The position numbers were made by a program, and so were the translations under genes. Shown here one piece after another: positions 63,157 to 64,000 of a DNA stretch of 64,000 nucleotides. How positions within the stretch are numbered: the stretch's first letter is position 1; each line of letters starts with the position of its first letter. A model generated the notes under the pieces. It saw only the letters and a list, made by a program, of their open reading frames with translations, was not told where the DNA came from and ran no database searches. The stretch comes from Escherichia phage ECO319P1. The stretch lies in the sequence record OP172790; one strand, 5' to 3'.

Positions 63157-63269
63157 GATACTTCTCCTCACTGAAAAGAGGTAATTCGATACCCACCATC
63201 CACCCACTTGTCTATAACCATAACTTACAAGTGCTACGTTGTATTATAGTTCTACTTTCCAATTTCTAT

Positions 63270-63420
63270 TACACTGAAAGAAAAGAAAATCAAATGCGGT
63301 GTCATAATTGGACACTGATAGATGGGAGGTCATACTTATCACACTGAATGAGGGAATGCTTTATGCGGGGTCATATTCTTTATGTTATTTAACAGTGAAG
63401 AAAGGAAAATAAGAGAGGAG
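63270..63420. repeat. imperfect direct repeats (CACTGAA... ATGCGG(T/G)GTCATA) spaced approx 110 bp
   Basis: Two similar approx 40-bp segments near 63275-63315 and 63363-63400, read by eye. Confidence 0.4.
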
Positions 63421-63504
63421 GTAGATGGGATATAAGAAATATTACTCAAGGACAAATCCGCTTGTCTGTTTCGTTGTCCGGCATGAGTATTAGCTCAAAT
63501 TTTT

Positions 63505-64000
63505 CAGGATTCTTACACCTCAATCATTAATAACTCAAAAATTTTTAACTCAATCACTATTAATTAGTCAGGCTATCCTCATTATTGAACAGTCACGCGG
63601 TGGTACGTAGGGCTAGCTGGCAGTCTCGCTCGCCAAAAAGGGGAAGTGGGTCAATGCTTACACTGTTACAAGCGATTTCCCATTATACGCCGTTTCCCTA
63701 GCCTGTCAACCCTCAGCCACCTACTGCATAACTAATCACTCTCAATGAATAACTACTCAATGATACCCCTCCCCACTGCATAACTATTCAATGTAATGTT
63801 ATACTATCACACTATGTATCAGCGTCCACGGGATTGCATAACTATCTATTTCCAGTGCATATCTACTCAATCAACCATCCCTCAATAAACTATCCTCAAT
63901 GCTTTATCATCCCGTTATTTATCAAATCAGTAATGGCGATATGTGAAAATCCCGCCTCTGTTACAAGGCATCCGCCACGTTGCATAAGTATTCACTTCTC
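63505..64000 (+). promoter_or_regulatory. repeat-rich non-coding control region: four TGCATAA(C/G)TA elements and at least eight CTCAAT elements
   Basis: No ORF over 60 aa; TGCATAACTA-like copies near 63724, 63777, 63833, 63982; CTCAAT recurring near 63511, 63551, 63741, 63758, 63868, 63886, 63896. Confidence 0.5.

What the first reader, a model, noticed from the sequence alone, without database searches (positions are those of the whole stretch)
63200..64000. 800-bp non-coding region with reiterated TGCATAACTA and CTCAAT elements
No ORF exceeds 60 codons here. The region is AT-rich and carries four TGCATAA(C/G)TA elements, at least eight CTCAAT elements, imperfect approx 40-bp direct repeats and one GC-rich island (approx 63600-63640). 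TTGCAT resembles a -35 hexamer and at least one copy has a TATACT about 18 bp downstream, so this may be an early-promoter cluster oriented rightward, possibly combined with an origin, packaging site or terminal-repeat boundary.
Basis: seen in the sequence. Interest (0 to 1): 0.55.

Follow-up and report, generated by a model that had tools for sequence, protein, structure and literature searches.

The report
Host ArgR operators beside phage packaging site
The repeated TGCATAACTA and CTCAAT words are the two halves of binding sites for the host's arginine repressor (ArgR), lying in the non-coding packaging and late-gene control region of a phiEco32/7-11-like lytic phage next to a strong leftward promoter; I found no published report of a lytic phage tying its genome end to a host amino-acid sensor.

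Summary
The favoured interpretation, a rightward early-promoter cluster, is not supported.

- **Source.** The window comes from a Crifsvirus (Grimontviridae, phiEco32/7-11 relatives). Its gene-1 protein is identical to one from Escherichia phage ECO319P1.
- **Position.** The region lies upstream of a leftward operon: probable small terminase, three tRNAs, large terminase, portal.
- **Repeats.** TGCATAACTA and (C/T)TCAAT are halves of one 18-bp dyad that matches the published ARG-box consensus WWTGMATWWWWATKCANW. There are six boxes. Two pairs have the canonical 18+3+18 ArgR operator layout and score like E. coli arg operators, far above background.
- **Conservation.** The boxes are kept in four Crifsvirus strains, with fewer copies in two further genera.
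- **Promoters.** The boxes end 13 bp upstream of the window's only consensus sigma-70 promoter (TTGACA-16-TATAAT), which is on the minus strand. Two 7-11-type late promoters also point left.
- **GC-rich island.** It is conserved across the family, has no conserved RNA fold, and matches the sequence at the inner boundary of phiEco32's 193-bp terminal repeat. It is probably a terminase cleavage signal.
- **Outside the window.** The early promoters and a cluster of five DnaA boxes lie 0.25–1.4 kb beyond the window end.
- **Untested.** ArgR binding and the physical genome ends.

The parts
63723..63740 (.). ARG box 1 (ACTGCATAACTAATCACT), the promoter-proximal box of tandem operator I
   Evidence: It has 3 mismatches to WWTGMATWWWWATKCANW. 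It scores 10.2 bits with a matrix built from E. coli boxes, rank 16 of about 64,000 positions. It ends 13 bp upstream of the -35 hexamer.
63744..63761 (.). ARG box 2 (AATGAATAACTACTCAAT), 3 bp after box 1, giving the canonical 18+3+18 operator
   Evidence: It has 2 mismatches. The tandem total is 5, equal to the argA operator, while window background is 8 or more. The tandem matrix sum is 25.0 against 10.6 for background.
63775..63792 (.). ARG box 3 (ACTGCATAACTATTCAAT), a single box and the best match in the window
   Evidence: It has 1 mismatch and ranks first in the window by matrix score, 16.1 bits. Relatives keep it with changes only at degenerate consensus positions.
63833..63850 (.). 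ARG box 4 (ATTGCATAACTATCTATT), first box of tandem operator II
   Evidence: It has 3 mismatches, and the tandem total with box 5 is 5. The tandem matrix sum is 23.2.
63854..63871 (.). ARG box 5 (AGTGCATATCTACTCAAT), 3 bp after box 4
   Evidence: It has 2 mismatches and matrix rank 8.
63979..63996 (.). ARG box 6 (GTTGCATAAGTATTCACT), a single box at the window edge
   Evidence: It has 2 mismatches and matrix rank 5. A24 keeps it.
63682..63709 (-). Consensus sigma-70 promoter TTGACA-16-TATAAT pointing left; predicted start near 63676
   Evidence: It matches 12 of 12 positions and is the only match of 11/12 or better in the 64 kb. Both hexamers are invariant in four strains. PKM.Hi.22.6 has TTGACT-17-TAGAAT and BUCT695 has TTGACA-17-TAGGAT at the same place.
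63574..63652 (-). Conserved GC-rich island, read on the minus strand: GACCCACTTCCCCTTTTT (63652-63635), GCTAGC (63617-63612), ACCACCGCGTG (63604-63594), ATGAGGATA (63582-63574). Probable terminase cleavage signal; predicted cut near 63614/63615.
   Evidence: It is the only part of the region with nucleotide-level similarity to distant genera. The pattern CCCCTTTT-N(14-22)-GCTAG occurs once in the window (0.01 expected), and in phiEco32 it spans the repeat end at position 193. No conserved RNA fold was found on either strand, and there is no Rfam match.
63491..63516 (-). Late promoter 2 of the 7-11 type, read by the phage sigma factor: GTAAGA-N16-GCTA
   Evidence: It matches the experimentally defined 7-11 late consensus GTAAtg-(16)-aCTA (PMC8948821). 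It is present at the same relative position in every Grimontviridae region examined.
63247..63272 (-). Late promoter 1 (GTAATA-N16-ACTA), about 90 nt upstream of gene 1
   Evidence: It matches the same consensus. Its position corresponds to 7-11 promoter P1 in front of gene 1 (PMC8948821). It is conserved in all relatives.
63270..63378 (+). Three imperfect repeat units (ACACTGA ... ATGSGRNGTCATA; 13-mers at 63294, 63322, 63363). This is a family-wide motif of unknown function.
   Evidence: The same motif, in the same orientation and place, occurs in Crifsvirus, Moazamivirus, PKM.Hi.22.6, Libingvirus and Privateervirus.
63519..63560 (+). AT-rich stretch (24% GC) with ACTCAA(T) repeats between the island and late promoter 2. 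These are only weakly ARG-like and are not counted as operators.
   Evidence: The boxes have 3-4 mismatches and no 21-bp phasing.
63910..63920 (+). Conserved block TCCCGTTATTT (minus strand AAATAACGGGA)
   Evidence: It is shared by the window, A24, 7-11, PKM.Hi.22.6 and BUCT695. phiEco32 has AAATAAACGGG starting 30 nt inside its terminal repeat.
62800..63156 (-). Gene 1: a 118-aa probable small terminase subunit, first gene of the leftward operon
   Evidence: It matches PaP3 small terminase 6w7t (E = 4e-4), a PHROG small-terminase family (E = 3.8e-4) and DUF5681 (E = 1e-4, below the curated cut-off). The top Foldseek hits are the PaP3 and NV1 small terminases, but they are not significant (E = 0.16). 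Three tRNAs, the large terminase and the portal follow.

Best explanation
**What the region is.** It is the non-coding packaging and late-control region of a Crifsvirus genome.

**What the repeats are.** The TGCATAACTA and CTCAAT words are not promoters. They are the left and right halves of 18-bp ARG boxes, the operators of the host arginine repressor ArgR. There are two canonical tandem operators (two boxes, 3 bp apart) and two single boxes.

**How it most likely works (inferred).**
- Arginine-loaded ArgR hexamers from the host bind these operators and bend or wrap the DNA.
- The binding lies just upstream of the window's only consensus sigma-70 promoter. That promoter fires leftward, across a conserved terminase cleavage signal (the GC-rich island), into the small terminase, large terminase and portal operon.
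- The most likely effect is to modulate this promoter according to arginine supply, to shape the DNA next to the packaging cut site as IHF does at lambda cosB, or both.
- Two phage-sigma late promoters downstream give the normal late expression of the same operon.

**Shown versus inferred.**
- Shown: the sequence identity of the boxes, their operator layout, statistics and conservation; the promoter motifs; the homology of the island to the phiEco32 repeat boundary.
- Inferred: that ArgR actually binds, the regulatory or architectural outcome, and the position of the physical genome ends.
For: - **Independent derivation of the motif.** I derived the dyad TGMATANNTATKCA from the phage sequence before finding the published consensus 5'-WWTGMATWWWWATKCANW-3' (PMC11172107). 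The two are the same motif.
- **Canonical layout.** The canonical E. coli ArgR site is two 18-bp semi-palindromes separated by 3 bp (PMC6640053; PMC4381063). Boxes 1+2 and 4+5 have exactly this layout.
- **Calibration on E. coli.** I summed mismatches over tandem boxes in 43 kb of E. coli K-12. Exactly six sites scored 5 or less, one upstream of each of argI, argE/C, argG, argR, carA and argA. Background was 8 or more.
- **Phage score.** The two phage tandems score 5, and nothing else in the 64 kb scores below 8.
- **Shuffle control.** None of 5000 dinucleotide-preserving shuffles of 63700-64000 gave a tandem of 5 or less, or four or more good single boxes.
- **Independent matrix.** A matrix built only from 12 E. 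coli boxes ranks the phage boxes 1, 3, 5, 8, 14 and 16 among about 64,000 positions.
- **Conservation within the genus.** Two tandems are kept in A24, GAP52 and Logan contig L020, although the region as a whole is only about 84-87% identical between these strains.
- **Selective constraint.** Fixed consensus positions vary in 12 of 48 alignment columns against 87 of 183 spacer columns (Fisher p = 0.005). The promoter hexamers vary in 0 of 12.
- **Conservation across genera.** In Aeromonas phage BUCT695 an ARG box lies 12 bp from TTGACA-17-TAGGAT. In the window the gap is 13 bp.
- **No phage ArgR.** tblastn finds no ArgR homologue in the window.
- **Promoters and island.**
Against: - There are no binding data of any kind.
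- The phage operators are weaker than E. coli biosynthetic operators. Their tandem matrix sums are 23-25 against 28-41, although the E. coli values are inflated because those boxes were the training data.
- Every phage box has a C or G in the central W4 tract.
- The boxes lie upstream of the -35 hexamer (about -47 to -85) rather than over the promoter, where strongly repressed arg promoters have them (PMC6640053).
- 7-11, PKM.Hi.22.6, LAh_6 and phiEco32 lack ARG boxes at this position. 7-11 has a different palindrome there. So the feature is specific to some genera and cannot be essential to the family.
- A phage-encoded dimeric protein with similar specificity is not excluded.
- I picked the E. 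coli reference boxes by scanning known arg control regions, not from a curated footprint table.
Confidence: 0.6

Rival explanations
1. The 14-18-bp dyads are operators for a phage-encoded dimeric DNA-binding protein, for example the small terminase or an early regulator. Their resemblance to ARG boxes would then be coincidence. The array would be a pac/cosB-like recognition array or a phage-controlled switch.
For: The array lies between the probable terminase cleavage signal and the presumed genome end, next to the probable small terminase gene. Other genera carry arrays of different palindromes at the same place, for example ATGTTATAACAT in 7-11, as expected if sites co-evolve with a phage protein. 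phiEco32 has ACGGGGA repeats in and beside its terminal repeat.
Against: The match to the ARG box covers the consensus, the 18+3+18 layout and the score range of real operators, and is far from background. The gene-1 protein is about 80% identical across genera whose arrays differ, so it is a poor candidate reader. The same motif appears in phages of Escherichia, Cronobacter, Aeromonas and Proteus hosts, which all have ArgR.
Confidence: 0.17
2. One reading: the TTGCAT words are -35 elements of rightward host-RNA-polymerase early promoters.
For: There is a CTGCAT-18-TATACT pair at 63776-63805 with an extended -10 motif, TGTTATACT, at 63797, conserved in four strains. Early genes do lie to the right in the circular map.
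Against: The scan finds no + strand sigma-70 site among the repeats. TTGCAT/CTGCAT matches TTGACA at 3 or 2 of 6 positions. Extended -10 motifs occur about once per 3 kb of strand. Strong rightward promoters such as TTGACA-18-TAGAAT lie 0.8-1.4 kb further right. In 7-11 only the two promoters next to gene 151 were validated; the third predicted upstream one was not (PMC8948821). The repeats are dyad-symmetric and effectively flip between strains, which a promoter element could not do.
Confidence: 0.05
3. The array is a set of replication-origin iterons, so the region is the phage origin.
For: It contains repeated protein-binding sites beside AT-rich DNA. A cluster of five perfect DnaA boxes lies a few hundred bp away in relatives.
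Against: The window has no perfect DnaA box. The DnaA cluster is a separate element about 245-433 bp beyond the window end. The sites are dyads in operator layout, not same-orientation iterons. The cumulative GC skew turns near 37 kb, where the two gene blocks converge, but that says little for a phage.
Confidence: 0.06
4. The repeats are structural short-repeat arrays of the kind found next to T7-type terminal repeats (SRL/SRR; from my own knowledge of Dunn and Studier 1983). They would serve concatemer processing without a dedicated sequence-specific host factor.
For: The phiEco32 group packages T7-style with short direct terminal repeats (PMC4281155; PMC7881722). By homology the array would lie inside or beside the terminal repeat.
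Against: This reading does not explain the precise ARG-box consensus, the 21-bp pairing or the conserved spacing to the promoter.
Confidence: 0.08

Closest known systems
E. coli ArgR operators (ARG boxes of argR, argECBH, argI, argG, argA, carAB P2, artJ/artP/hisJ)
   Same: They share the 18-bp imperfect palindrome TGMAT-W4-ATKCA, tandem boxes 3 bp apart, and a position next to a sigma-70 promoter. The phage scores fall within the range of chromosomal operators.
   Different: The phage sites are in a lytic phage, not an arginine gene. There are six boxes within 274 bp. They lie upstream of the -35 hexamer rather than over the promoter. That resembles hisJ, whose boxes PMC6640053 describes as lying slightly more upstream. 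They score weaker than biosynthetic operators.
IHF site I1 within lambda cosB (from my own knowledge)
   Same: In both cases a site for a host DNA-bending protein is embedded in the terminase recognition region, between the cut site and the terminase genes.
   Different: The host factor is different (ArgR, which needs a ligand). No terminase-binding R sites have been identified here. The role in packaging is only inferred.
ArgR/PepA accessory sequences of ColE1 cer, and the P1 requirement for ArgR and PepA (PMC2409434, abstract seen)
   Same: ArgR is used as an architectural factor on a mobile element, outside arginine metabolism.
   Different: cer has a single ARG box and works with PepA and XerCD recombination. 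No Xer site or PepA signal was looked for or seen here.
The 193-bp direct terminal repeat of phiEco32 (Kuravirus)
   Same: The order of elements is the same: AAATAA(A)CGGG, then short repeats, then CCCC(C)TTTT(T), about 20 nt, then GCTAG. It lies on the same strand as the homologous gene (phi32_6 and gene 1). The phiEco32 repeat ends inside GCT|AG.
   Different: The repeats in between are ACGGGGA words, not ARG boxes. phiEco32 has coding genes 1-5 between the repeat and gene 6. Duplication at both ends is not shown for Grimontviridae, whose PhageTerm results were unclassified (PMC11812318, PMC7881722).
Late promoters of Salmonella phage 7-11, read by its sigma factor gp47 (GTAAtg-N16-aCTA)
   Same: There are two matches on the minus strand upstream of the gene-1 homologue, conserved in all relatives.
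   Different: These are separate elements from the repeats named in the finding. Transcription has not been tested in this phage.

Membership tests
ARG box / ArgR operator | An 18-bp imperfect palindrome matching WWTGMATWWWWATKCANW | tested here: met
   The six boxes have 1-3 mismatches. The twelve E. coli K-12 boxes found the same way have 0-4.
ARG box / ArgR operator | Two boxes in tandem separated by 2-3 bp (a 39-bp operator) | tested here: met
   The pairs 63723-63761 and 63833-63871 each have a 3-bp spacer. The layout is as defined in PMC6640053 and PMC4381063.
ARG box / ArgR operator | A score that separates real operators from background sequence | tested here: met
   The tandem mismatch total is 5, against 8 or more elsewhere in the window and in 43 kb of E. 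coli. None of 5000 shuffles reached it. The tandem matrix sums are 25.0 and 23.2 against 10.6.
ARG box / ArgR operator | Overlap with the -35/-10 elements of the regulated promoter, typical of strongly repressed arg genes | tested here: not met
   The boxes lie at about -47 to -85 from the predicted start of the 63709-63682 promoter. Only the weak rightward candidate at 63797 has box 3 over its -35 region.
ARG box / ArgR operator | Arginine-dependent binding by the ArgR hexamer | not testable with these tools
   This needs a gel shift, footprint or ChIP.
Sigma-70 promoter | -35 and -10 hexamers with a 16-18-bp spacer | tested here: met
   TTGACA-16-TATAAT on the minus strand matches 12 of 12 positions and is unique in the window at 11/12 or better.
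Sigma-70 promoter | Transcription initiation in vivo or in vitro | not testable with these tools
   No RNA data are available.
phiEco32-type direct terminal repeat | The boundary sequence CCCC(C)TTTT(T), about 20 nt, then GCT|AG | tested here: met
   It is a unique match at 63613-63643 (0.01 expected). In phiEco32 the same pattern lies at 163-195 and spans the repeat end at 193.
phiEco32-type direct terminal repeat | The same sequence present at both physical ends of virion DNA | not testable with these tools
   The window holds one copy. The relatives' records are collapsed or circular. The 127-bp end overlap in A24 is the length of a common assembler k-mer, so I read it as an assembly artefact. 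PhageTerm did not classify SeKF_80 or Privateer.
7-11-type late promoter | The bipartite motif GTAAtg-(16)-aCTA upstream of a late gene | tested here: met
   Matches at 63516-63491 and 63272-63247 on the minus strand, conserved in position in all nine Grimontviridae regions.
DnaA-dependent replication origin | A cluster of DnaA boxes (TTATCCACA) | tested here: not met
   The window has no perfect box. Five lie outside it in relative L020, at 8085-8273.
Structured non-coding RNA (as a reading of the GC-rich island) | A conserved secondary structure with covariation, or membership of an Rfam family | tested here: not met
   RNAalifold gives -1.1 to -2.9 kcal/mol with no helices on either strand in 10-11 sequences. 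The only Rfam matches are the tRNAs.
Small terminase subunit (for gene 1) | Sequence or fold similarity to solved small terminases | tested here: inconclusive
   Weak but consistent: PDB PaP3 small terminase E = 4e-4, PHROG E = 3.8e-4, DUF5681 below the curated cut-off. The model has pLDDT 69, and its top Foldseek hits are small terminases at E = 0.16.

The most novel reading that the evidence does not exclude
A virulent phage uses the host arginine repressor as a structural or sensory part of its genome end. I see three versions that are not mutually exclusive.

1. ArgR hexamers bridge ARG boxes carried in the two terminal repeats, as one hexamer bridges two cer sites. This would synapse or protect the ends, or prepare the concatemer junction for terminase.
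2. Arginine availability gates transcription across the packaging signal into the terminase genes.
3. Hundreds of replicating genomes, each with six boxes, titrate ArgR and so derepress host arginine synthesis for phage protein production.
Probability: 0.2. Interest if true: 0.8.

Novelty: new variant of a known kind. Interest (0 to 1): 0.6.

Why it matters
ARG boxes and ArgR are textbook elements, and host bending proteins at phage packaging sites are known (IHF at lambda cos). A conserved array of canonical ArgR operators in the packaging-proximal, probably terminally repeated, non-coding DNA of a lytic podophage did not turn up in my search of the held literature.

If ArgR binds, it would link phage late or packaging functions, or host arginine metabolism, to an amino-acid signal. 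That is directly testable with an argR knockout, gel shifts and box mutants.

The analysis also gives the first concrete prediction of where Grimontviridae genome ends lie: a cut near 63614/63615 inside GCTAGC. PhageTerm has failed to classify these phages. In addition, it maps two late promoters and one host-type promoter for the terminase operon.

Tried and rejected
- **N4-like hairpin early promoters.** This was my first guess from the genome layout. I dropped it when the relatives proved to be Grimontviridae, whose downstream genes are terminase and portal.
- **A24 terminal repeat as a guide to the ends.** The overlap is exactly 127 bp, the length of a common assembler k-mer. I therefore withdrew my earlier placement of the end 490 bp beyond the window.
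- **Record ends of BUCT695, J3S and LAh_6.** None carries a duplicated end, and the two 'places' in J3S are just a circular record's junction.
- **Left repeat boundary by homology.** There is no conserved block directly upstream of AAATAACGGGA, so only the inner boundary is predicted.
- **ARG boxes as 7-11-type late promoters.** They contain ACTA, but no GTAA lies 16 nt upstream (inspection).
- **Island as a small RNA made from the consensus promoter.** There is no conserved fold and no consistent terminator hairpin.
- **Collection scans with the island pattern.** They returned only 7-11 itself and one 7-11-like contig.
- **The phiEco32 genome paper (Savalia et al. 2008).** It is not held. The supplements of the ArgR ChIP-exo paper are not held either, so I took reference ARG boxes from E. 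coli K-12 directly.
- **The remaining CTCAAT copies (63519-63556, 63881-63900).** They are not good ARG boxes and remain unexplained.

Full report
**Where the window comes from.** The last 1.2 kb of the window is 84-90% identical to Cronobacter phages A24 and GAP52 (Grimontviridae, Crifsvirus; relatives of Salmonella phage 7-11 and, more distantly, phiEco32). The gene-1 protein is 100% identical to a protein that NCBI names from Escherichia phage ECO319P1. The window runs opposite to the usual record orientation. From 63156 leftward lie a 118-aa protein, tRNA-Trp, a small ORF, tRNA-Pro, tRNA-Phe, a small ORF, the large terminase and the portal. In relatives the non-coding DNA continues about 1.9 kb beyond the window end, up to the rightward early genes.

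**Check of the observation.** The stated features are all present. The one correction is that CTCAAT has seven exact copies, not eight or more. The TGCATAASTA words occur only here in the 64 kb.

**What the repeats are.**
- Comparison with a fourth strain (Logan contig L020) showed copies that looked flipped in place. This revealed that TGCATAACTA plus (C/T)TCA is one dyad, TGMATA-NN-TATKCA.
- Five of the six window matches to this dyad fall in 63725-63994, where 0.93 is expected for the whole window.
- The dyad is the core of the published ARG-box consensus WWTGMATWWWWATKCANW (PMC11172107).
- ArgR binds two 18-bp semi-palindromes separated by 3 bp (PMC6640053, PMC4381063). Boxes 1+2 (63723-63761) and 4+5 (63833-63871) have exactly that layout. 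Boxes 3 and 6 are single.

**Calibration against real operators.**
- I fetched six arg control regions of E. coli K-12. Summing mismatches over tandem boxes picks out exactly one site upstream of each of argI, argE/C, argG, argR, carA and argA, with totals of 2-5. The rest of those 43 kb scores 8 or more.
- The two phage tandems score 5, and nothing else in the window scores below 8.
- Local shuffles never reach this score (0 of 5000).
- A matrix made only from the E. coli boxes ranks the phage boxes 1, 3, 5, 8, 14 and 16 of about 64,000 positions.

**Conservation of the boxes.**
- The operators are kept in A24, GAP52 and L020.
- Fixed consensus positions change half as often as spacers (p = 0.005), and changes at degenerate positions stay within the consensus.
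- BUCT695 (Aeromonas host) has three boxes, and CsaP_009 and J3S have one or two.
- 7-11, PKM.Hi.22.6, LAh_6 and phiEco32 have none. 7-11 carries another palindrome in that position.
- The window encodes no ArgR homologue.

**Promoters.**
- The only match of 11/12 or better to the sigma-70 consensus in the window is TTGACA-16-TATAAT on the minus strand (63709-63682). It lies 13 bp from box 1 and points toward the terminase genes.
- BUCT695 keeps the same arrangement, with a box 12 bp from TTGACA-17-TAGGAT.
- Two minus-strand matches to the experimentally defined 7-11 late promoter (GTAAtg-N16-aCTA; PMC8948821) lie at 63516-63491 and 63272-63247. They are conserved in every relative.
- The rightward early promoters are outside the window. 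One weak rightward extended -10 motif (63797), overlapped by box 3, cannot be excluded.

**The GC-rich island.**
- It is the only part of the region that is alignable across genera.
- It has no conserved RNA structure and no Rfam match.
- Its core, CCCCTTTT-N17-GCTAG, is unique in the window. In phiEco32 the same pattern spans the end of the experimentally determined 193-bp terminal repeat (prefix equals suffix over 193 bp; PMC4281155).
- The flanking blocks occur in the same order as in phiEco32.
- I therefore read the island as a terminase cleavage signal at the inner repeat boundary. That places most ARG boxes inside a terminal repeat of roughly 300-340 bp.
- This reading rests on homology alone. 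The relatives' records are collapsed, A24's 127-bp overlap is most likely an assembly artefact, and PhageTerm could not classify related phages.

**Mechanism.**
- Most likely, host ArgR with arginine binds the array. It then modulates the adjacent leftward promoter, bends the DNA beside the packaging cut site, or both.
- More novel possibilities are end-bridging and titration of ArgR.
- The three ATGSGRNGTCATA repeat units (63270-63378) form a separate, family-wide motif of unknown function.

**Verdict.** The feature is real and non-random. The ARG-box reading is new for this kind of phage and easy to test.

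Noticed in passing
L020 8085-8273 (equivalent to about 245-433 bp beyond the window end); also seen in the A24 composite: Five perfect DnaA boxes (TTATCCACA) lie within 190 bp, where 0.15 is expected for the 11-kb locus. The 64-kb window has none. This may be a DnaA-dependent origin or a DnaA sink between the ARG array and the early promoters.
   Followed up: partly
MW343794.1 (A24) record ends; L001 and L003: The record's 'terminal repeat' is an exact 127-bp prefix/suffix overlap, the length of a common assembler k-mer. The A24 record start is therefore most likely arbitrary, not a physical end.
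   Followed up: yes
window 63270-63378; also L005, L006, L011, L012, L016: The motif ACACTGA...(G/T)ATG(G/C)G(R)NGTCATA is repeated 2-5 times, always in the same orientation, between and around the two late promoters in all Grimontviridae genera examined. Its function is unknown. The first copy contains an extended -10-like motif, TGTCATAAT.
   Followed up: partly
L005 (7-11) 1690-1800 and 1935-1955; window 63796-63813: Where Crifsvirus has ARG boxes, 7-11 has several copies of a different palindrome (ATGTTATAACAT / TGTTA-N5-TAACA). One related element (AATGTTATACTATCACAC) persists in the window. The array's specificity therefore seems to differ by genus.
   Followed up: no
window 14108-14125: An isolated good ARG-like box (TTTGCATTGATATTCAGT, 1 mismatch; matrix rank 2) lies inside the + strand coding block. 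It has no tandem partner and may be chance.
   Followed up: no
window, + strand 15644, 18013, 24424, 29457, 36047; minus strand 56856, 48759, 43513: These are further matches to the 7-11 late-promoter pattern GTAAnn-N16-ACTA with A/T-rich sequence after it. They are candidate late promoters for the rest of the genome.
   Followed up: no
window 63451-63480: The inverted repeat GGACAA...TTGTCC lies just downstream of late promoter 2, so it would form a stem-loop near the 5' end of that transcript. It is largely conserved in A24 and GAP52.
   Followed up: no
window 62263-62696: Three tRNA genes (Phe-GAA, Pro-TGG, Trp-CCA) sit between the probable small terminase gene and the large terminase gene. 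Relatives carry different tRNA sets at the same place.
   Followed up: partly
alignment A2, between CCCCTTTT and GCTAGC (window 63618-63634): The 17-19-nt spacer in the island is not conserved in sequence, but in several genera it is a simple alternating tract (GTGTGCGTGTGTG, GAGAGAG or CTCTCTCT).
   Followed up: no
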